DNA from: an uncultured virus (IMG/VR IMGVR_UViG_3300042569_001770)
Taxonomy: Duplodnaviria > Heunggongvirae > Uroviricota > Caudoviricetes
Strand: one strand, 5' to 3'
Virus record (IMG/VR): IMGVR_UViG_3300042569_001770
Length of the DNA stretch: 60,188 bases
The translations under genes were made by a program, and so were the position numbers. Shown here piece by piece: positions 37,663-60,188 of this stretch; position 1 is the first letter of the stretch, and each line of letters opens with the position of its first letter. The notes under the pieces were generated by a model that was not told the origin of the DNA, ran no database searches, and worked only from the letters and a program-made list of their open reading frames with translations.

Positions 37663-38076
37663 ATGAATAAAATTTCTTGGGAAGAATACGCCCTTCGCAT
37701 TGCTCAAGTAGCCTCTATGCGAAGCGAAGATCGATATAAAAAAGTAGGTGCATGTGCTCTGGATAAAGACAATAGAGTTATAGGTGTAGCTTATAACGGA
37801 TTGGCTTCTAAGAAAGATGTAGATGAATCTTTTTGGGCAGACAGAGATGCTCGTAGACCGTATATGATTCATGCAGAAGCCAATCTCCTTTCTCTCTTTA
37901 AAAGAGGAGAGTGTGTGTTGTTGGCTTGTACCTTGTTGCCTTGCAGTAGTTGTGCCACTATGATTGCGGCCTACGGTATTAAGCGAGTTATATATTCAGA
38001 GATGTATCATCACGACGACAAAGCATTGGATATTTTTAAATTTTACGATATCAGTTGTGAGCAGTATAAAATTTAA
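37663..38076 (+). CDS. dCMP deaminase
   Basis: RSED..KKVGA, AYNG, HAEAN, PCSSC. Confidence 0.9.
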   Translation: MNKISWEEYALRIAQVASMRSEDRYKKVGACALDKDNRVIGVAYNGLASKKDVDESFWADRDARRPYMIHAEANLLSLFKRGECVLLACTLLPCSSCATMIAAYGIKRVIYSEMYHHDDKALDIFKFYDISCEQYKI

Positions 38077-38500
38077 AAGGTTAGAAGAAATAGGAGAATC
38101 TTTAATAGATTATTCTAGTTCCAAAAGATGCCATCACTTTTCTTTTATTTTATACAAAAACCGGATAGTAGCCATAGGATCAAATAATAAAAAAACACAT
38201 CCTACCAATTTAAAAAACCCCAAAATATCAACTAAGACTGGTGAAAATTTTTCAGATCAAAAATTTACTTGTAGTGAGTTCAGTGCCATTTTAAAATTAA
38301 AAAGACTCACCAATATAGATAGTAAAAAATGTACGCTGGTTAATATAAGGTACGATAGAAATAAAAAATTAGCCCTTGCAAAACCGTGTATGAGCTGTGA
38401 TAATCTTTTACGATATTTTTTATTTAAAAAAATATATTCAACAAACAATAAAGGAGAATATGAAGAAATTAGCATCAATAGAAGTTATCAAAAACATTAA
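38057..38500 (+). CDS. Cytidine deaminase-fold protein with variant zinc motif
   Basis: HFSFILYKNRIVAIGSN...THP...CSEFSAI...AKPCMSC; start (GTG 38057) uncertain. Confidence 0.6.
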   Translation: MSSIKFKRLEEIGESLIDYSSSKRCHHFSFILYKNRIVAIGSNNKKTHPTNLKNPKISTKTGENFSDQKFTCSEFSAILKLKRLTNIDSKKCTLVNIRYDRNKKLALAKPCMSCDNLLRYFLFKKIYSTNNKGEYEEISINRSYQKH

Positions 38501-39476
38501 AGAACATCCCAATGCAGACTCTTTGGAAATTGCAGAGGTACTTGGATGGCAAACTGTTGTTAAAAAGGGTATTCACAAAGAAGGAGACAAGGTTGTTTTC
38601 GTTACAATCGACACCATTGTTCCTAGGTATCACTGGTCAGACTTTCTAGCAGATAAGAACAATCCGGACAAACCAATTAGAATCAAAAATATAAAATTGC
38701 GAGGCGAGTATAGTTCGGGATTAGTAATTCCACTTAGTGAATTTTCGTCTTTTGTTTTTAAAGATTATGATGAGAGTACAGATCTCACTGAAATATTGGG
38801 TATTCAAAAATATATCAAAGAAATTCCAGCCAACCTTTCAGGGGAAACATTAGGAGACTTCCCAACTCATTTAGCTTCTAAAACAGATGAGGATAATGGT
38901 TTGAATGATCCGGAATTGGTTAATAAGGTTCTCAATCACGAATCCCATATTACTATTACACAAAAGTTAGATGGAAGTTCTATAACTCTAATTATTGAAA
39001 ACGGAGTACTCTCTCAGGTGTGCACCAGAAACCTTTCTAAGAAAGAAACAGATAATAATACATTCTGGAAAGCAGCAAGGAAACTTACTATTCCTCAAAA
39101 TTGGACAGGCATCATACAAGGTGAATTAGTGGGCAATGGAATCCAACGCAATCAACTTAAACTGGAAGATGTTAAAATTTTTGTATTCCAAATCAATCAA
39201 GACAAAAAATATATGTCCTATGAAGAGATGAAAGATTTTTGTGAAAAAACTTTACATTGTGATGTGGTTCCTTTAATATCTAAATTTGAAGTAGAATCTA
39301 CAATTAAATTGTGGTCAAATCCTTTGCAAAAATTACAAGAGCTAGCAGACAAACAAAAATATCCCAGTGGATTGGACGGTGAGGGAATTGTAGTAAGGCC
39401 ATCATCATACCCAAGAAGCTATGCTTCTCGTCGCCCGTTGGGATTCAAACTTATTAATAGAAATTATAAAGACTGA
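38460..39476 (+). CDS. RNA ligase (DRB0094/Rnl2-type with N-terminal OB-like domain)
   Basis: HPNADSLE, KLRGEYS.G, KTDE, TQKLDGSS, QGELVG.GIQ.N, EGIVVR, FKLIN; AAGGAG before ATG 38460. Confidence 0.9.
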   Translation: MKKLASIEVIKNIKEHPNADSLEIAEVLGWQTVVKKGIHKEGDKVVFVTIDTIVPRYHWSDFLADKNNPDKPIRIKNIKLRGEYSSGLVIPLSEFSSFVFKDYDESTDLTEILGIQKYIKEIPANLSGETLGDFPTHLASKTDEDNGLNDPELVNKVLNHESHITITQKLDGSSITLIIENGVLSQVCTRNLSKKETDNNTFWKAARKLTIPQNWTGIIQGELVGNGIQRNQLKLEDVKIFVFQINQDKKYMSYEEMKDFCEKTLHCDVVPLISKFEVESTIKLWSNPLQKLQELADKQKYPSGLDGEGIVVRPSSYPRSYASRRPLGFKLINRNYKD

Positions 39477-39477
39477 T

Positions 39478-39657
39478 ATGTACAAACTTGAAAGAAGAGA
39501 AAATGAAGGAAATTGGTATGAAGTGATGGTTTCACCCTTTAAAACCAAAGAAGAGATTAAAACCTATTATGCCAAGTATAGTAAATACTATCCCAACACA
39601 AAAACTATGTATAGGGTCACGAACCTAGAAACCACTGGCATGAAAGTTATTCGATAA
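39478..39657 (+). CDS. Hypothetical protein
   Basis: ATG immediately after ligase stop. Confidence 0.55.
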   Translation: MYKLERRENEGNWYEVMVSPFKTKEEIKTYYAKYSKYYPNTKTMYRVTNLETTGMKVIR

Positions 39658-39698
39658 ATATTGTTGCATTTGCCTATAAAAAAATATATTATTAAACA

Positions 39699-39893
39699 AT
39701 GACAAACGCATACACAGAAGCAGCAGAAGTGGGTGAAATGGTTGACCGCTTGAACGCCATGAAGGATACCGCTTTAGATCACTATCACATAAACCCAAAA
39801 GAAAGTGAGAGAATTTTAAAAGCCATTCTTGAGTTGGATAAAGAAGTTGAAGAGTTGATAGGAGAATACGACGAGTTGTTGAAGGCATTATGA
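39699..39893 (+). CDS. Hypothetical protein
   Basis: Own promoter TTGCAT-17-TATTAT, ATG at predicted +1. Confidence 0.65.
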   Translation: MTNAYTEAAEVGEMVDRLNAMKDTALDHYHINPKESERILKAILELDKEVEELIGEYDELLKAL

Positions 39894-40372
39894 GATTTGT
39901 AGAAGTTATATTAGAAAATAGCGGATTGAAAGAAGCAAAACTTTATCCAGCTGCATTAAAAGCTTCTTCAAATCCAGATTCTGGAATTACTATTCAAAAT
40001 AAATCAGCATACCATGTAATCAAAGATTGTGCCAATATTACAACAAAGTATTTGCCTCACTTTGTTTTTGGGGAGTACGCAGACCCTATTAAGGTATTAA
40101 GTGGAAAATTTAAAAAAGTAGACATATCCAATTTTGTACAAGAAGCTGGTAAAAATTATGTATTACAACAACTTTTAATTATTGTATTGGACAAAATTAA
40201 AAAGAGTGGTGTGGTGAATCTTTTGTCTTCTCAATCATCTAAAACATCACCAGTCGTAGAATCTTCTAACCCTTATGGTGAATATGGTCTTGTAACCGAA
40301 ACTGTAATAGAAGAGGTTAAAGATAAATCAGATTTGGATATCCTGTGTGAGGCATTTAAAGTGCAAGCATAA
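39890..40372 (+). CDS. Hypothetical protein with leader MRFVEVILE
   Basis: 160 aa ORF, ATGA overlap with previous gene. Confidence 0.65.
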   Translation: MRFVEVILENSGLKEAKLYPAALKASSNPDSGITIQNKSAYHVIKDCANITTKYLPHFVFGEYADPIKVLSGKFKKVDISNFVQEAGKNYVLQQLLIIVLDKIKKSGVVNLLSSQSSKTSPVVESSNPYGEYGLVTETVIEEVKDKSDLDILCEAFKVQA

Positions 40373-40387
40373 AGAATAAATATATGT

Positions 40388-41509
40388 GTGCTTACCTTTA
40401 AAGAATATTTATTAAAAGAATTTCGTATACCCGGGCCTAAACCAGAAAAAAACATTTTTCCCGGAGAAATATCCAACGCAATGGAAAAATGGTTTGTTTT
40501 TAAAAAGGGTAATCAATTTACTTTAGACAAATCACCATGCCTTGGTGAAACAACTCCTGTAGGTGTTTTTACTTTTAGTCCTTTCTTTAAAAGAGAAGAA
40601 GGTGTAAAATTTTATAGCGCGGCACAGTTACAACTTTTTACCAAAGAATCAAGAGTTAAAAAATCCCTTCTGCACTTAGCTCGTGGGAAAATGGTAGAAG
40701 GTGTAGAAGAAAATTACAGAGCTAAATTTTTATCTGAAATGATTTCTAAAACTGTACAAACTTTAGAAAAAACAAAACCTTCTATAATTGTAGATATAGA
40801 ATCTACAGCAGATTTTAATAAGTCAGTGTTATCAGGTTATAAAGCACCAAATGTTTTGGGTTATAATAGTATTTTAAAAAATAATTTTAATTATATAGCT
40901 TCAAGATATACCAATCCTAGTGTGGTTAGAGATCAGTTAATGGTTGATACTGTATACTTAAAAGGACCAGAAACCGGTCAACCTAAACCCTATGCAGAAA
41001 TAATTTCTTTAGCTTATGTTGATATGCTAAAAGATATAAGGGAAGGGAAGGAAATTAAGAAAAAAGAAAGAACCACAACTGGTGAAACCAAATTGTCAAT
41101 AGATCTTATAGCATCTGTATTATCTTCCAACTATATAGACAATGCTGTTGCAGAATTTTCTAAAACGATAAAAAAAGGAGTTCCAGCAGCTGAATTATAT
41201 GGTCAGGATCAAATTAATAAATGGATTAAAAAATTAAAAGATTCTAGAACCGTAAAAGAATTTTTATTGCCTAATGATTTTTTTATTTTTGATAAAACTT
41301 TCTGGCAAAACCCATCAAATAATAATATAGTTATATTAGATGACAACATTAATTCCCACAAAACCTTTATAGAAATTAATAAAAGAGTTAAATTATTAAA
41401 TCCTAAAGCAGACATTACATGGGTAGTTGGAATTAAATTTGAAGGCGTATCTGAAGAATCTTGCCCGAAATGCAACACACAACAAAAATCATTACCTTCC
41501 GAAAAATAA
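40388..41509 (+). CDS. Protein with capsid-targeting-like leader and C-terminal PRTase-like motif
   Basis: MLTFKEYLLKE; NIVILDDNINSHKTF resembles a PRPP-binding loop; TAAATA upstream. Confidence 0.6.
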   Translation: MLTFKEYLLKEFRIPGPKPEKNIFPGEISNAMEKWFVFKKGNQFTLDKSPCLGETTPVGVFTFSPFFKREEGVKFYSAAQLQLFTKESRVKKSLLHLARGKMVEGVEENYRAKFLSEMISKTVQTLEKTKPSIIVDIESTADFNKSVLSGYKAPNVLGYNSILKNNFNYIASRYTNPSVVRDQLMVDTVYLKGPETGQPKPYAEIISLAYVDMLKDIREGKEIKKKERTTTGETKLSIDLIASVLSSNYIDNAVAEFSKTIKKGVPAAELYGQDQINKWIKKLKDSRTVKEFLLPNDFFIFDKTFWQNPSNNNIVILDDNINSHKTFIEINKRVKLLNPKADITWVVGIKFEGVSEESCPKCNTQQKSLPSEK

Positions 41510-41940
41510 ATGAACCGTATGGCTGGCTTGGTAATATGAGCGCTCATGCCATAGAAGAAAACAATATACTATATCCAACAGCCGAACATTACTTTCAGTG
41601 TTTGCGGTTTGAAGATAAAGATTTAGTAAAACAAATATGCTCTATTAGATCTCCAATGGGCGCTAAAATGAAGGTTAAAACGTTAAAGGATTATTTTAAA
41701 GTTTTTCCCAGAACATCAAAAGATGTAGACAATATGTCTAAAACATTGGACAAGAAAATAGAACAACATCCTTCTTTGAAACTTTATTTGGAAGATATGA
41801 AAGAAGCTCTCATAATAGAGGATGTTTCCAATCGCCCCAATACTTCGGGTAAATTTTGGGGCATGGCATTGGTAAGCAATGAATGGATAGGTGAAAACCA
41901 TTTAGGAAACCTTTGGATGCAAAAGATTAATAATCTTTAA
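41470..41940 (+). CDS. NADAR (YbiA/DUF1768) family hydrolase
   Basis: F.....PYGWLGNM, YPTAEHYFQ, LIIE, FWG, GENHLGNLWM. Confidence 0.88.
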   Translation: MQHTTKIITFRKINEPYGWLGNMSAHAIEENNILYPTAEHYFQCLRFEDKDLVKQICSIRSPMGAKMKVKTLKDYFKVFPRTSKDVDNMSKTLDKKIEQHPSLKLYLEDMKEALIIEDVSNRPNTSGKFWGMALVSNEWIGENHLGNLWMQKINNL

Positions 41941-47372: not shown

Positions 47373-47381
47373 AATTTAGTT

Positions 47382-47466
47382 GGAAGGGTGGCAGAGCGGT
47401 CTATTGCAACGGTTTACTAAACCGTCGAGGGTTAAACCTCCGAGAGTTCGAATCTCTCCTCTTCCG
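47382..47466 (+). tRNA. tRNA-Ser, anticodon ACT
   Basis: Acceptor GGAAGGG/CTCTTCC, G73, anticodon arm ACGGT-TTACTAA-ACCGT, long variable arm, T arm GAGAG-TTCGAAT-CTCTC; no encoded CCA. Confidence 0.9.
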
Positions 47467-47531
47467 ATTTTTTTAGAGAAATAAGCATTGCTAATATTTA
47501 AAAAAGATATTATAATTTTGTTAGAATTTAC

Positions 47532-48504: not shown

Positions 48505-49067
48505 TTTTTCCCAATAATATCAGGCAAGACATAGAGGAAGTTCTGTATCACGAATCAACTATTTTATCCAGATTGGATGAATTGGCTTCTGGTATTACAT
48601 CAGAATATGCCGACAAAGATCTTACAGTTATATCTATCCTTAACGGTAGTTTCATATTCATGGCAGACCTTTTAAGACGGATTAATCTGCCGTTGCAATT
48701 GGATACTTTGAGTGTTTCAAGCTATCACGGAATGCATTCCTCGGGAGAAATTAATTTCCGTCAACATCAAATTGCAGACGTAAAAGGTCGTCATGTTTTG
48801 CTGCTGGATGACATTTTAGATTCGGGGTTGACTCTAAAAACCATTAAAGAAAAGATATCTAATGAGGGTGCCCTTTCGGTCAAATGTGGCGTCCTTTTTA
48901 GCAAAAAGGTGACCAGGAAAATAGACATTGAGGCTGAGTATGTTGGCTTTGAAATCGACAATAAATTCATTGTTGGCTATGGTTTGGACTACAATGAACA
49001 ATACAGAAACCTGCCTTTTGTGGGTGTTTTGAAGCCAGAGGCCATTAAAAAATGGCAAAAAAAGTGA
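48501..49067 (+). CDS. hpt: Hypoxanthine phosphoribosyltransferase
   Basis: ILNGSFIFMADLLR, VSSY, GRHVLLLDDILDSGLTL, FIVGYGLDYNEQYRNLP. Confidence 0.95.
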   Translation: MIFPNNIRQDIEEVLYHESTILSRLDELASGITSEYADKDLTVISILNGSFIFMADLLRRINLPLQLDTLSVSSYHGMHSSGEINFRQHQIADVKGRHVLLLDDILDSGLTLKTIKEKISNEGALSVKCGVLFSKKVTRKIDIEAEYVGFEIDNKFIVGYGLDYNEQYRNLPFVGVLKPEAIKKWQKK

Positions 49068-49120
49068 TTCAAAATCGCAAAAAAGTGACTCAAAATCTCA
49101 AAAAAATGGTTTAAAATACA
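49058..49120 (+). repeat. 21 bp direct repeat x3 (third copy degenerate) before an AT-rich tract
   Basis: AAAAAAGTGATTCAAAATCGC / AAAAAAGTGACTCAAAATCTC / AAAAAAATGGTTTAAAATACA. Confidence 0.7.
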
Positions 49121-49256
49121 CTTTTTTTGTTTTTAAATTTACAATATTACATTTTACATTTATAAGTTAACCATTTATAATTTATTGATTTATTTTACAA
49201 ATATAGCATTTTAAATTTAAAAAAATAATAAAATATACATATTTCGCAAATAAGAA

Positions 49257-49285
49257 GTGCAATTTCCCTGTAAATAATGTATATT
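49257..49285 (+). promoter_or_regulatory. Candidate promoter of the ncRNA array
   Basis: GTGCAA-17 nt (TTTCCCTGTAAATAATG)-TATATT, with the TTTCCC spacer of the early promoters and an embedded TAAATA. Confidence 0.55.
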
Positions 49286-49296
49286 AGTTTTATTAG

Positions 49297-50091
49297 ATAG
49301 TTGGTTCCCGATGAGCCAATAGGACTGAAAATACTCGGTCGAACACAAAATCGGAAATTGATATTTGACATTTTGATTTAGTAGACCCGCCATGCCTCTG
49401 CTTGCAACAAGTAGTTTCTGAAGTACAAAGAAATGAAAGCGAGACCCATGCACACTTTGGCGGGTATTTCTTTTACCAAGCGCAGATGCTCGCAAAGCTC
49501 TACCGCGATGGGCGACAATGCAATGTTTCCGGAAACAACATTTAACCCATAGGGAACTTCAGAAGAAGTCTTGGTAATAATTCTAAAACTGGAATGTTAG
49601 CTTAGAGGCAGCTATCATCTAAGGAGTGGGACTGGACGTGGAGAACTGGTAATTCGTATGGACACAATTCAGATAAGCCATACATCCTATTTATAGGTAC
49701 GGAGATGACCGTGAATTGCGTTTCACAGGATGGAGAAATTCATAACCCCTTTGGCGTAAAAGCACACCAGTTAGATTTGGTCGGCGGCTGAGAGAGCATG
49801 CGTCTGGTTGATCTCTGAGGGCTTCAATAATGCCGAGTATACCCGGCCACCTTTTATGGAGAATCTTTAATTAGATTACGGAGCTAACCGAATGCGTGTA
49901 GAATAAAGTCCTTCGGTCAAATATGACTATCTACCTCCATATTAAATTTTGATAAGTCGGGTGGGAATAGTGTGCTGTTCTTAAAAAGCTCACCACTGCG
50001 GACTTATCAACAGCACCGAGTAGGCAGGTTTAAATGAGTATCCAGCTTCCAGCGGGTTAAAAACCCGGTAGCCAATGCGGACTCAGCTGTT
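49297..50091 (+). ncRNA. Array of eight stem-closed structured RNA modules (or one ~800 nt multidomain RNA)
   Basis: No credible ORF, raised GC; modules at ~49301-49354, 49385-49465, 49473-49577, 49582-49775, 49778-49849, 49855-49941, 49949-50010, 50011-50089, then a T-tract. Confidence 0.8.
49582..49775 (+). ncRNA. 23S rRNA H43/H44 (uL11-binding, GTPase-associated centre)-like RNA with 126 nt insert
   Basis: ACTGGAATGTTAGCTTAGAGGCAGCTATCATCTAAGGAGT...GCGTAAAAGCACACCAGT aligns ungapped to 23S nt 1051-1108 (from memory) with compensatory changes. Confidence 0.8.
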
Positions 50092-50131
50092 TTTATTTGC
50101 GTTTCCCCTAAAAATGTTATAAATTCTATAC

Positions 50132-50299
50132 ATGAAAATTAACCCATATAAATTAGGTATGAACTTTTATATTATCCTTATAGTATCGGTGGTTGTATTC
50201 ATTGGTTGCAAAACGTTTGAAAAACACGAAGACGAACGTCGCTTTAAAAAAGACGTCGAATCTTTCTTTCAGACACCAGACCTTAGCAAGATCAAATAA
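50132..50299 (+). CDS. Small membrane/lipoprotein-like protein (55 aa)
   Basis: Hydrophobic stretch ending FIGC; promoter copy upstream. Confidence 0.55.
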   Translation: MKINPYKLGMNFYIILIVSVVVFIGCKTFEKHEDERRFKKDVESFFQTPDLSKIK

Positions 50300-50342
50300 A
50301 TTCGTTGAGTTTCCCCATTAAATCTATTATTATATTTCCATA

Positions 50343-50594
50343 ATGAGAACTGTAACATCCCATCAATACCAACAAACTAAACTCAAAGCACTCTTCGATC
50401 TAATCTGTGATGAAGAGAATTGGAAGAACCCAATCCATTGTGTAGTTCCTTACTATGCTCTTTCTAAATTTAGCGAAGCATGTAGTCACTTCACAGGAGG
50501 ATGTCTGGTGGCTACGAAGTCTCTTGACGGGGTCAAGAACATGGATATGGTCGAGTGTAAGTCAGATGGCTACTATGTCAACATAGGAGCCTAG
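50343..50594 (+). CDS. Hypothetical protein
   Basis: Promoter repeat upstream; NWKNPI motif. Confidence 0.7.
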   Translation: MRTVTSHQYQQTKLKALFDLICDEENWKNPIHCVVPYYALSKFSEACSHFTGGCLVATKSLDGVKNMDMVECKSDGYYVNIGA

Positions 50595-60105: not shown

Positions 60106-60188
60106 TCCTCGTTAGTAGAATGGTAAATACACCCGACTGTTAATCGGGAGCCGAAAGGCACTCTTGGTTCGAGTCCAAGACGAGGAGC
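60106..60188 (+). tRNA. tRNA-Asn, anticodon GTT, with long variable arm (3' end at window edge)
   Basis: Acceptor TCCTCGT/ACGAGGA, G73, CCCGA-CTGTTAA-TCGGG, GCC-GAAA-GGC variable arm, T arm CTTGG-TTCGAGT-CCAAG. Confidence 0.92.

What the first reader, a model, noticed from the sequence alone, without database searches (positions are those of the whole stretch)
49297..50091. ~800 nt operon of eight tandem stem-closed non-coding RNA modules
Seen: the ORF-free, GC-elevated region is tiled by modules, seven closed by their own terminal stem: ACCCGCCA/TGGCGGGT (49385-49465), TTACCAAG/CTTGGTAA (49473-49577), AACTGG/CCAGTT (GAC mimic), TGGTCGG/CCGGCCA (49778-49849), TATGGAG/CTCCATA (49855-49941), TTGATAAGTC/GACTTATCAA (49949-50010), AACAGC/GCTGTT (50009-50091). 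A two-hairpin module comes first. Spacers are short and AT-rich, a promoter lies upstream and a T-tract follows. None is a tRNA cloverleaf. Inference: it is laid out like a phage tRNA array but holds unknown RNAs. It is either a polycistronic set of small decoy RNAs released by tRNA-type processing or one large multidomain RNA of GOLLD/ROOL size.
Basis: partly seen in the sequence, partly recalled or inferred. Interest (0 to 1): 0.88.

Follow-up and report, generated by a model that had tools for sequence, protein, structure and literature searches.

The report
Phage operon of shuffling small-RNA cassettes
A lake phage carries, in its tRNA gene region, a string of eight separate folded small RNAs that related phages mix and match; one is a copy of a bacterial antitoxin RNA and one imitates a piece of the ribosome, so the string is probably a set of RNA decoys against host defences.

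Summary
Window 49297-50091 is ORF-poor and GC-elevated, and it is tiled by eight stem-closed modules on the + strand.

The modules are independent cassettes, not one large RNA.
- In six arrays tRNA genes sit between them, and a tmRNA gene often follows.
- Covariation supports every module that has homologues.

Two cassettes were identified.
- Module 1 (49385-49465) is an abiF-motif RNA, the type III antitoxin of AbiF, with a roughly 50-nt insertion in its loop. A relative has a canonical 37-nt abiF RNA (49.6 bits) in the same slot.
- No AbiF toxin gene is present in the window or in a complete 203-kb relative.
- Module 3 (49587-49772) imitates the 23S rRNA GTPase-associated centre (helices 43 and 44) around a roughly 130-nt insertion. 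The alignment score is 56, against a maximum of 34 in 1000 shuffles.

The other six modules match no known family. My best reading is a polycistronic operon of small RNAs processed like tRNAs, with module 1 as an antitoxin decoy. Decoy roles for the rest are inferred.

The parts
49257..49285 (+). Promoter-like site GTGCAA-17 nt-TATATT directly upstream of the array. Relatives have TTGACA-17-TATAGT/TATATT at the same place.
   Evidence: Sequence. Aligned relatives L013 and L005 printed. It is not picked by the consensus scan, which instead lists 49153-49181 TTTACA-17-TATAAT.
49297..49366 (+). M0, the leader module. Hairpin 1 is 49300-49320 with an invariant loop UUCCCGAUGA. Hairpin 2 is 49323-49340. 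An invariant tail AAAAUCGGAAA lies at 49347-49357. It comes first in every array that begins inside the held DNA.
   Evidence: z -2.12. In 20 distinct sequences, 15 pairs were predicted, 2 with compensatory changes and many one-sided. CCGAU in loop 1 is complementary to AUCGG in the tail. This possible pseudoknot is my reading; both sides are invariant, so it is untested.
49385..49465 (+). M1, an abiF-motif RNA (AbiF type III antitoxin motif) with a roughly 50-nt insertion in the terminal loop. The 5' half is 49386-49399 and the 3' half is 49450-49465.
   Evidence: Rfam abiF 26.9 bits, E 0.038, with 50 inserted nt. The halves are identical to bacterial motifs that lie upstream of Abi_2 genes. 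A canonical 37-nt abiF RNA (49.6 bits) sits in the same slot in relative L208. z -2.47.
49473..49577 (+). M2, a four-helix junction RNA of unknown family. Its last hairpin is expandable (13 nt here, about 60 nt in most relatives).
   Evidence: 15 distinct sequences, 34 pairs, 6 compensatory. Covariation score 0.150 against 0.096 in shuffles (0/500), and 0.062 or less in slid controls.
49587..49772 (+). M3, a mimic of the 23S rRNA GTPase-associated centre. 49588-49624 resembles E. coli 1051-1087 (helix 43 = 49594-49618). 49754-49771 resembles 1091-1108 (helix 44 hairpin GCGUAAAAGC = 49754-49763). A structured insertion of about 130 nt lies between them.
   Evidence: Covariation.
49778..49849 (+). 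M4, a 72-nt stem-closed RNA of unknown family.
   Evidence: Five further copies (L152, L188-L191), together with the window's own in five different neighbourhoods. In 4 distinct sequences, 19 pairs were predicted, 4 compensatory, including 2 in the closing stem. z -0.31.
49855..49941 (+). M5, an 87-nt stem-closed RNA of unknown family.
   Evidence: One homologue (L184, 90% identity) between M2 and a tRNA-Thr gene, with changes that keep two inner helices paired (my reading of the printed sequences). z -1.59.
49949..50010 (+). M6, a 62-nt long hairpin with internal loops, of unknown family.
   Evidence: z -3.27, with 1 of 200 shuffles as good. In 9 distinct sequences, 2 of 20 pairs are compensatory, each in 4 sequences.
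50009..50091 (+). M7, an 83-nt branched RNA of unknown family. Its closing stem plus the T-run 50090-50098 ends the array here. In most relatives a tmRNA gene follows instead.
   Evidence: 15 distinct sequences, 18 pairs, 6 compensatory. Covariation score 0.159 against 0.071 in shuffles (0/500). tmRNA downstream in relatives.

Best explanation
The region is one transcription unit of a large freshwater myovirus. It encodes eight separate, stem-closed small structured RNAs, arranged like the tRNA and tmRNA genes that lie in the same locus in related phages.

The cassettes are independent genes. Related phages gain, lose, duplicate and reorder them.

Inferred: the primary transcript is cut in the short AU-rich spacers by the host enzymes that mature tRNA operons, which releases stable RNAs.

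Module 1 is an orphan copy of the AbiF antitoxin RNA. Inferred: made in bulk by the phage, it keeps the host's AbiF HEPN toxin bound and silent during infection, as pseudo-ToxI does for ToxN.

Module 3 presents a look-alike of the 23S rRNA helix 43/44 junction. Inferred: it binds whatever recognises that site, either ribosomal protein uL11 or a toxin aimed at the GTPase-associated centre.

The other six cassettes are conserved structured RNAs of unknown partner. I read them as further protein-binding decoys or modulators.
For: Cassette nature
- 24 IMG/VR contigs carry two or more of the window's modules in varying sets. L184, L208 and 4 metagenome contigs add to these.
- The order M3-M2 occurs in L191, M1-M3 in L176 and M0-M4 in L189.
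- tRNA genes lie between modules in L138, L143, L147, L152, L184 and L191.
- tmRNA follows in many arrays.
- The modules are not alike: each hits only its own slot in the window.

RNA structure on the + strand
- Compensatory pairs are seen in every module that has homologues.
- Controls hold for M2, M7 and M3.
- Many G-U pairs would be C-A mismatches on the other strand.

M1 is an abiF RNA
- 24 of 30 downstream ORFs are Abi_2; L208 scores 49.6 bits in the same slot.

M1 is an orphan
- No Abi_2 in the window.
- No Abi_2 in a complete 202,880-bp relative, in 3 partial relatives, or in the whole S-CREM1 genome.
- Abi_2 lies directly downstream of the motif in 4 of 73 viral loci, against 33 of 62 bacterial loci (Fisher p 2.5e-10).

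Antitoxin function of abiF RNA in trans
- PMC12373285 (abstract and passages) and PMC13064643 (passages).

M3 resembles the GAC
- Score 56 against shuffles of mean 17.6, sd 5.1, max 34 (0 of 1000).
- The best other place in the window scores 34.
- In an unbiased scan of 23S, 16S and 5S, the top window is 23S 1051.

Weak evidence of expression
- Contigs from 4 RNA libraries of 4 studies bridge M1-M2-M3, M1-M3 and M3-M6-M7 of relatives. DNA carry-over is not excluded.
Against: - No RNA ends, processing or binding have been shown.
- Folding energy is not better than shuffles for M3 and M4, nor for the whole region.
- The window's M1 fails Rfam's gathering score (26.9 against 37), and its loop insertion might affect binding.
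- Only M3 subtype A (the window, L160, L173; L176 is partial) is closely rRNA-like. The 11 subtype B sequences score 36-40 and lack the two helix-43 loop bases that align with E. coli G1071 and C1072.
- The roughly 130-nt insertion interrupts the junction, so uL11 binding is uncertain.
- No bacterial counterpart of M2, M4 or M7 was found in 151 genomes.
- The host is unknown, so it is unknown whether it has AbiF.
Confidence: 0.6

Rival explanations
1. The cassettes serve the phage's own gene expression rather than acting as decoys. M1 would be a terminator or attenuator hairpin, M3 a device to adjust translation (for example by titrating uL11 and so blunting the RelA response), and the others regulatory sRNAs or ligand sensors like the wcaG and manA RNAs of cyanophage tRNA arrays.
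For: - In bacteria the abiF motif also acts in cis as a terminator (PMC12373285 passages), and it is followed by a U-run. The window has AUUUCUUUU after M1.
- S-CREM1 has wcaG and manA RNAs in the same kind of array.
- No partner of six modules is known.
Against: - A plain terminator need not keep all 30 motif bases identical to the toxin-binding motif of distant bacteria.
- Orphan abiF motifs are strongly enriched in viral DNA.
- The cassettes lie upstream of different neighbours in different phages, so they do not regulate one fixed gene.
Confidence: 0.2
2. The modules are selfish or neutral palindromic insertions (MITE-like or REP-like), or decayed tRNA genes. They would spread within tRNA arrays and have no function as RNA.
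For: - Each unit is bounded by an inverted repeat.
- Units come and go between close relatives.
- Closing stems of 7-8 bp resemble acceptor stems.
Against: - Closing stems and inner helices covary instead of keeping their sequence.
- G-U pairs are strand-specific.
- Loops are invariant across variants.
- M1 and M3 match functional RNAs.
- There are no tRNA hits.
- The modules are single-copy in the window.
Confidence: 0.1
3. The region encodes one large multidomain RNA of GOLLD/ROOL size.
For: It is about 800 nt, ORF-poor and GC-elevated, with one promoter region and one T-run.
Against: - No Rfam match to any large RNA at E up to 10.
- Domains are lost, added, reordered and separated by tRNA genes or even an ORF (L176) in relatives.
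- No long-range pairs between modules are conserved.
- The whole-region fold is no better than shuffles.
Confidence: 0.03
4. M1 is the antitoxin of a phage-borne AbiF toxin-antitoxin system whose toxin gene lies outside the window.
For: AbiF systems do occur on prophages (PMC12373285 abstract), and 4 of 73 viral loci have Abi_2 downstream.
Against: - No Abi_2 in the 60-kb window.
- No Abi_2 in a complete relative genome with the same array, or in complete S-CREM1.
- In real systems the gene is directly downstream.
Confidence: 0.03

Closest known systems
ncRNA genes interleaved with tRNA genes in T4-like cyanophage S-CREM1 (wcaG - tRNA-Met - tRNA-Leu - manA - tRNA-Asn - abiF - tRNA-Gly; OP535465, PMC9964418)
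   Same: A large T4-like phage carries structured RNAs as cassettes inside the tRNA array, one of them an abiF RNA without an AbiF gene.
   Different: Here there are eight cassettes in a row. None matches wcaG or manA. The abiF copy carries a roughly 50-nt insertion, and one cassette imitates rRNA. The paper proposes no function for its abiF sRNA (section 3.5 read).
AbiF antitoxin RNA (abiF motif, RF03085; RCd22 of C. difficile; Prevotellaceae AbiF)
   Same: M1 has the outer stem, the bulged A, the covarying inner stem, CCUCU and the 3' internal loop. Both halves are identical to bacterial copies.
   Different: M1 is an orphan with no toxin gene. It is a single copy with a long loop insertion, it lies in a phage tRNA locus, and it scores below Rfam's gathering threshold.
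pseudo-ToxI of phage phiTE, an RNA antitoxin mimic that lets a phage escape ToxIN (cited in PMC13064643; the original paper was not read)
   Same: This is the proposed mode of action of M1: a phage-made copy of a type III antitoxin RNA neutralises the host toxin.
   Different: It is a different toxin family (ToxN, not the HEPN protein AbiF). ToxI is a tandem 36-nt repeat, which M1 is not. Function is shown there and inferred here.
Stable RNAs 'species 1 and 2' in the phage T4 tRNA gene cluster (recalled from memory; no call)
   Same: Small stable non-tRNA RNAs are co-transcribed and processed with phage tRNAs, and their function is still unknown.
   Different: No sequence comparison was made here. 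T4 has two such RNAs, not a shuffling set.
23S rRNA GTPase-associated centre (helices 43/44, the uL11 and thiostrepton site), target of the Tre23 ADP-ribosyltransferase toxin (PMC8661411)
   Same: M3 keeps helix 43 (22 of 25 bases), the helix 44 hairpin (9 of 10) and the closing helix with two compensatory pairs.
   Different: A roughly 130-nt structured insertion splits the junction. M3 is a free small RNA, not part of a ribosome. Most relatives (subtype B) are less rRNA-like.
GOLLD and ROOL large phage-associated RNAs
   Same: The overall size and the location near tRNA genes in phages.
   Different: There is no model match, and the region is not one conserved unit.

Membership tests
abiF RNA (Rfam RF03085) | Score at or above Rfam's gathering threshold (37 bits) | tested here: not met
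   The window copy scores 26.9 bits, and relatives with the insertion score 26.9-29.8. The short cassette in the same array slot of L208 scores 49.6 bits.
abiF RNA (Rfam RF03085) | Outer stem CCCGCC/GGCGGG, bulged A, CCUCU at the loop start, 3' internal loop | tested here: met
   49386-49399 and 49450-49465 are identical to both halves of the bacterial copies L016, L043, L051, L059, L081, L092 and L112.
abiF RNA (Rfam RF03085) | Inner 3-bp stem whose first pair covaries (A:U, C:G, U:A) | tested here: met
   M1 has UGC...GCA. The bacterial classes are AGC...GCU, CGC...GCG and UGC...GCA.
AbiF type III toxin-antitoxin locus | Abi_2 (PF07751) gene directly downstream of the RNA | tested here: not met
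   No Abi_2 in the window or in a complete relative genome. For contrast, 24 of 30 bacterial loci have it.
AbiF type III toxin-antitoxin locus | The RNA binds and neutralises AbiF | not testable with these tools
   Needs co-expression and a binding assay.
23S rRNA GTPase-associated centre fold (uL11 site) | Helix 43 hairpin with its loop | tested here: met
   49594-49618 matches E. coli 1057-1081 at 22 of 25 bases, with one compensatory pair. In 11 subtype B relatives the loop is 2 nt shorter.
23S rRNA GTPase-associated centre fold (uL11 site) | Helix 44 hairpin and closing helix | tested here: met
   49754-49771 matches 1091-1108 at 14 of 18 bases. Two of the four changes are compensatory with the 5' strand. 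This holds for subtype A only.
23S rRNA GTPase-associated centre fold (uL11 site) | Compact 58-nt three-way junction | tested here: not met
   About 130 nt (49625-49753) are inserted between the two hairpins.
23S rRNA GTPase-associated centre fold (uL11 site) | Binds uL11 | not testable with these tools
   No RNA-protein predictor is on hand. No phage L11 gene was found in 5 relatives.
GOLLD / ROOL | Match to the covariance model; conserved as one unit | tested here: not met
   No hit at E up to 10. The modules separate in relatives.
tRNA | Cloverleaf found by ARAGORN or Rfam tRNA | tested here: not met
   No tRNA in 49297-50091.
ToxI-type antitoxin array | Tandem near-identical short repeats | tested here: not met
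   Each module matches only its own slot in the window at E 1e-3 or better. Tandem Repeats Finder was not run.

The most novel reading that the evidence does not exclude
The array is a fast-shuffling 'RNA decoy island'. Every cassette would imitate a host RNA that a defence or competitor toxin binds or attacks. Examples are the AbiF antitoxin, and the 23S GTPase-associated centre as bait for toxins aimed at it or as a sponge for uL11.

All cassettes would be released from one precursor by the tRNA-maturation machinery and traded between phages like anti-defence genes. A virus-made decoy of a ribosomal RNA domain would be a new kind of counter-defence. The six unassigned cassettes would then point to unknown RNA-binding defence systems.
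Probability: 0.27. Interest if true: 0.92.

Novelty: new variant of a known kind. Interest (0 to 1): 0.8.

Why it matters
If this reading is right, several things follow.
- Phage tRNA loci are not only codon-supply or tRNA-repair loci. They are also carriers of exchangeable RNA weapons.
- The finding gives a directly testable case of RNA-based escape from AbiF, the ancestor of Cas13.
- It shows that orphan abiF RNAs are the rule in viral DNA: Abi_2 lies directly downstream of the motif in 4 of 73 viral loci.
- It offers the first candidate for a viral mimic of a ribosomal RNA functional centre.
- It supplies six conserved structured RNAs, each with a defined alignment, whose partners could uncover new RNA-binding defence or host-takeover mechanisms.

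Tried and rejected
Searches that found nothing
- A whole-region fold is no better than shuffles on either strand.
- blastn of the region against 50,697 phage records gave no match.
- No whole genome is held for the window.
- Rfam at E up to 10 on 48800-50500 gave only abiF and a chance Xist hit. There was no GOLLD, ROOL, manA, wcaG, ribozyme or riboswitch hit.
- Rfam on 11 further arrays named only tRNA, tmRNA, one group I intron, abiF and weak YrlA or tRNA-Sec hits.

Chance matches set aside
- Of 11 hits to the M1 18-mer, 5 were chance (L003, L007, L008, L010, L012).
- Of 2 hits to the M5 17-mer, 1 was chance (L185, coding).

Ideas dropped
- Other modules as rRNA mimics: M7 (30, against a shuffle maximum of 26) and M6 (24, against 22) were marginal and not kept in relatives (scores 6-16). 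They are not claimed.
- The M6 apical loop as a tRNA-Lys anticodon-loop mimic: the loop is 10 nt and varies (L135).
- M0 as a hammerhead or pistol ribozyme: no Rfam hit, and the core does not fit.
- M0 as a put-like antiterminator, and its loop-tail pseudoknot, remain untested guesses.
- My eye-call of a divergent M2 in L006/L161: model R3 does not find it.

Covariance models
- Models of M7, M4 and M2 found nothing in 151 Pseudomonadota genomes.
- As a yardstick, Rfam abiF rang in 7 of the same 151 genomes, 2 over the cut-off, and the centre genome had been chosen for having it.
- The same models over 90 held viral loci found only the relative L208, plus two weak hits at E 0.015 and 0.069.

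Host clues
- No psbA in 4 relatives, while S-CREM1 was positive.
- The tmRNA tag (25 aa, ending in ALAA) was uninformative.
- No L11 gene in 5 relatives.

RNA libraries
- The flanking ORFs had almost no cover in the four runs. The runs were chosen for the array and the contigs come from relatives, so this says nothing.
- 'Goes back' joints M1-to-M1 and M3-to-M3 may be tandem copies or circles. Contigs cannot tell which.

Promoter and terminator scan
- The number of promoter-like sites is not above shuffles, and the scan's terminator rule cannot see M7's long stem.

Literature
- No paper proposing a phage abiF decoy or a phage GAC mimic was found with the searches.
- The Cell 2025 AbiF paper of Zilberzwige-Tal et al. 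is not in the library. It may already discuss viral abiF RNAs.
Full report
**What is there.** The window is part of a large tailed phage. It has a T4-type major head protein, portal, baseplate wedge and an RNA ligase. DNA runs from lake and freshwater samples hold the stretch: 13 runs of 10 studies hold 21-90% of its words, leaving out the possible source run.

Between the phosphoribosyltransferase-like gene that ends at 49067 and a small ORF at 50132, the + strand has no ORF of 40 aa or more from 49546 to 50131. GC rises to 0.415-0.475, from 0.15-0.295 just upstream. ARAGORN and Rfam find tRNAs only at 47381-47467 and 60106-60188.

Thermodynamics alone does not carry the case.
- The whole region folds no better than shuffles (z +0.33, and -0.65 on the other strand).
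- Single modules give z -2.12 (M0), -2.47 (M1), -1.46 (M2), +0.16 (M3), -0.31 (M4), -1.59 (M5), -3.27 (M6) and -2.00 (M7).

**The modules are separate, exchangeable cassettes.** Pattern scans of IMG/VR and one of JGI metagenomes brought in related loci. Twenty-four distinct IMG/VR contigs carry two or more of the window's modules. L184, L208 and four metagenome contigs add to these.

- Most relatives have M0-(extra module)-M1-M2-M3-M6-M7 followed by a tmRNA gene and tRNA genes.
- M4 occurs only in the window, L152 and L188-L191.
- M5 occurs only in the window and L184.
- L176 joins M1 directly to M3 and has a protein gene between M0 and M1.
- L189 joins M0 to M4.
- L191 has M3 before M2.

tRNA genes lie between modules in L138, L143, L147, L152, L184 and L191. 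At least nine further stem-closed units that the window lacks fill other slots, by my reading of the sequences printed. Within the window each module matches only itself. This excludes one large RNA and fits a gene array of the tRNA type.

**The modules are RNA structures on the + strand.** RNAalifold on distinct sequences finds pairs kept through changes on both sides in every module that has homologues.

| Module | Compensatory pairs | Distinct sequences |
|---|---|---|
| M0 | 2 of 15 | 20 |
| M1 | 3 of 20 | 15 |
| M2 | 6 of 34 | 15 |
| M3 | 6 of 58 | 12 |
| M4 | 4 of 19 | 4 |
| M6 | 2 of 20 | 9 |
| M7 | 6 of 18 | 15 |

For M2, M7 and M3 the covariation scores are 0.150, 0.159 and 0.086. These exceed all 500 column shuffles (means 0.096, 0.071, 0.054) and all slid controls (at most 0.062, 0.057, 0.023). 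The structures were derived from the same alignments and the sequences are close relatives, so these numbers lean in favour. The frequent G-U pairs would be C-A on the opposite strand, which fixes the strand.

**Module 1 is an AbiF antitoxin RNA.** Rfam's only hit in the region is abiF (RF03085) at 49386-49465. It scores 26.9 bits (gathering 37, E 0.038), with 50 nt inserted in the loop.

The printed copies show a bulged A followed by a 3-bp stem whose first pair covaries (A:U, C:G, U:A). The window's halves, 49386-49399 and 49450-49465, are identical to the U:A class (L016, L043, L051, L059, L081, L092, L112).

Of 30 downstream ORFs that I scanned, 24 are Abi_2 proteins at E 1e-32 to 1e-58. 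These include five of the six U:A-class loci scanned. A bona fide locus with a 19-nt longer loop exists (L039).

In relative L208 the slot between M0 and M2 holds a plain 37-nt copy that scores 49.6 bits. So M1 is an abiF RNA with a loop insertion. The insertion is itself conserved among the phages.

The published work shows that this RNA binds AbiF and neutralises it, also in trans, as a type III antitoxin (PMC12373285, abstract and passages; PMC13064643, passages).

**Module 1 is an orphan, and that is typical of viruses.**
- Eight diverse Abi_2 proteins find nothing in the window or in 56 viral loci.
- Pfam finds no Abi_2 among 42 ORFs of the window.
- PF07751 is absent from a complete relative (202,880 bp, terminal repeats, 100% by CheckV), from three partial relatives, and from the whole S-CREM1 genome.

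The canonical motif is also common in IMG/VR, where the scan stopped at its limit with 119 loci. With one and the same tblastn test, Abi_2 lies directly downstream in 4 of 73 eligible viral loci. The figure is 33 of 62 for bacterial loci, or 41 of 70 if the eight query loci are counted. Fisher p is 2.5e-10. Divergent toxins could be missed equally in both sets.

**Module 3 imitates the 23S rRNA GTPase-associated centre.**
- blastn-short against E. coli 23S gives 22 of 25 identities between 49594-49618 and helix 43 (1057-1081), E 0.031.
- An alignment that allows one long gap adds 49754-49771 against 1091-1108. That covers the helix 44 hairpin (GCGUAAAAGC against GCGUAAUAGC), the following CAC, and the closing helix.
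- In the closing helix, two pairs are changed on both sides and kept.
- The score of 56 compares with mean 17.6, sd 5.1 and maximum 34 in 1000 dinucleotide shuffles. The best other place among 3000 windows of the 60 kb, both strands, scores 34.
- In a scan of every module against all windows of E. coli 23S, 16S and 5S, only M3 stands out, and its best window is exactly 1051-1108. It scores 56, while the maximum over windows in 20 shuffles has mean 35.2 and maximum 40.

About 130 nt lie between the two hairpins. They form helices that covary.

There is a caveat. The close likeness holds for subtype A (the window, L160 and L173 at 56; L176 is partial). The 11 subtype B sequences score 36-40 and have a helix 43 loop 2 nt shorter.

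The site is a known toxin target. The Tre23 toxin ADP-ribosylates helix 44 at 1095-1098 (PMC8661411, abstract and passages). Five relatives encode no L11.

**The rest.** M0 stands first in every array that begins inside the held DNA, right after a consensus promoter in relatives. It has two covarying hairpins and an invariant loop and tail that could pair. It may be a leader needed for read-through or processing, which is a guess.

M2, M4, M5, M6 and M7 match no Rfam family. Models of M2, M4 and M7 found nothing in 151 Pseudomonadota genomes. Among 90 other viral loci they found only the relative L208. abiF itself rang in only 7 of those 151 genomes, so this blank says little.

**Expression.** Contigs from four RNA libraries of four studies carry arrays of relatives and bridge M1-M2-M3, M1-M3, M3-M6-M7 and an extra module to M1. 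DNA carry-over cannot be excluded, and contigs show no ends.

**How it most likely works.**
- Shown: a conserved, strand-specific set of independent structured RNA genes in the tRNA/tmRNA locus. One is an AbiF antitoxin RNA without a toxin. One is a look-alike of the GTPase-associated centre.
- Inferred: the array is transcribed as one precursor, cut in the AU-rich spacers by tRNA-maturation enzymes, and accumulates as stable stem-closed RNAs.
- Inferred: M1 replaces the host's labile antitoxin when host transcription stops, and so disarms AbiF. I put the odds at about 0.6.
- Inferred: M3 binds uL11 or soaks up a factor aimed at that rRNA site. The odds are about 0.35 for any such binding role.
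- Inferred: the others are further decoys. The odds are about 0.27 for the array as a whole.

The same window also has a NADAR-domain ORF. That domain family includes orphan antitoxin-like counter-defence enzymes of T4-like phages (PMC11825919, search listing only).

**Comparison and novelty.** The closest published layout is the tRNA array of cyanophage S-CREM1, with wcaG, manA and abiF RNAs between tRNA genes (PMC9964418). Its authors gave no function for the abiF sRNA. A 2025 review repeats that the role is unconfirmed (PMC12197685, passage).

RNA antitoxin mimicry is known for ToxIN. My searches found no paper proposing it for AbiF, and none describing a phage mimic of the GTPase-associated centre. 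The Cell 2025 AbiF paper could not be read.

I therefore file the finding as a new variant of a known kind: ncRNA cassettes in phage tRNA arrays, combined with RNA antitoxin mimicry. The rRNA-domain mimic and six unassigned cassettes are the parts that could prove new in kind.

Noticed in passing
IMG/VR loci L192-L271 against genome loci L014-L093: Orphan abiF RNAs are the rule in viral DNA. Abi_2 lies directly downstream in 4 of 73 viral loci, against 33 of 62 bacterial loci. Five of 69 orphan viral copies have a tRNA gene within 500 nt; for example, in L193 the motif is followed at once by tRNA-Thr and tRNA-Ala.
   Followed up: partly
L032, L037, L089 (also L018, L065): In 3 of 30 bacterial loci the abiF-type motif is followed by a YhcG/DUF1016 PD-(D/E)XK nuclease gene instead of Abi_2. 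In one locus it is followed by a type I restriction S subunit, and in one by KfrA. These are possibly other toxins that use the same RNA.
   Followed up: no
window 41461-41940 (+): An ORF with a NADAR domain (E 1.4e-15). That domain family includes orphan antitoxin-like enzymes that T4-like phages use against DarTG (PMC11825919, search listing only). It is a second possible 'orphan antitoxin' in the same phage.
   Followed up: no
window 38397-39476 (+); flanks of L135-L154: An RNA ligase gene (PF09414 plus an OB fold). In many relatives the DNA within 3 kb of the array matches window 38000-40100. The ligase therefore lies next to the array there, but 10 kb away here.
   Followed up: no
RNA-library contigs laid on window 49378-49465 and 49584-49772: 'Goes back' joints occur exactly at module ends: M1 to M1 with 4 letters between, and M3 to M3 with 3 letters between. 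These are either tandem copies in relatives or circular RNAs. Contigs cannot decide.
   Followed up: no
L138 3375-3492; L152 3518-3616; L143 2647-2762(-); L184 1246-1367(-): A recurring tRNA-like gene of 99-122 nt with a long insertion in the anticodon arm. Rfam tRNA scores 44-47 bits, and there are overlapping weak Y RNA-like (YrlA) hits of 24-26 bits.
   Followed up: no
L013/L154, L004/L139, L005/L140, L009/L152, L143, L147, L150, L160: At least nine further stem-closed cassette types that are absent from the window fill slots between M0, M1, M2 and the tRNA genes. Several recur at different positions in different arrays (my reading of the printed sequences).
   Followed up: partly
L150 4310-4496: A group I intron (50.5 bits, at Rfam's gathering score of 50) in the tRNA region of the complete 203-kb relative.
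   Followed up: no
window 47381-47467 (+): The phage tRNA-Ser is called with the anticodon ACT, which is an unusual anticodon for serine.
   Followed up: no
tmRNA genes of L148, L149, L151, L154, L158, L175: The phage tmRNAs that follow the arrays encode an unusually long 25-residue tag ending in ALAA. The window's own array has no tmRNA gene after it.
   Followed up: no
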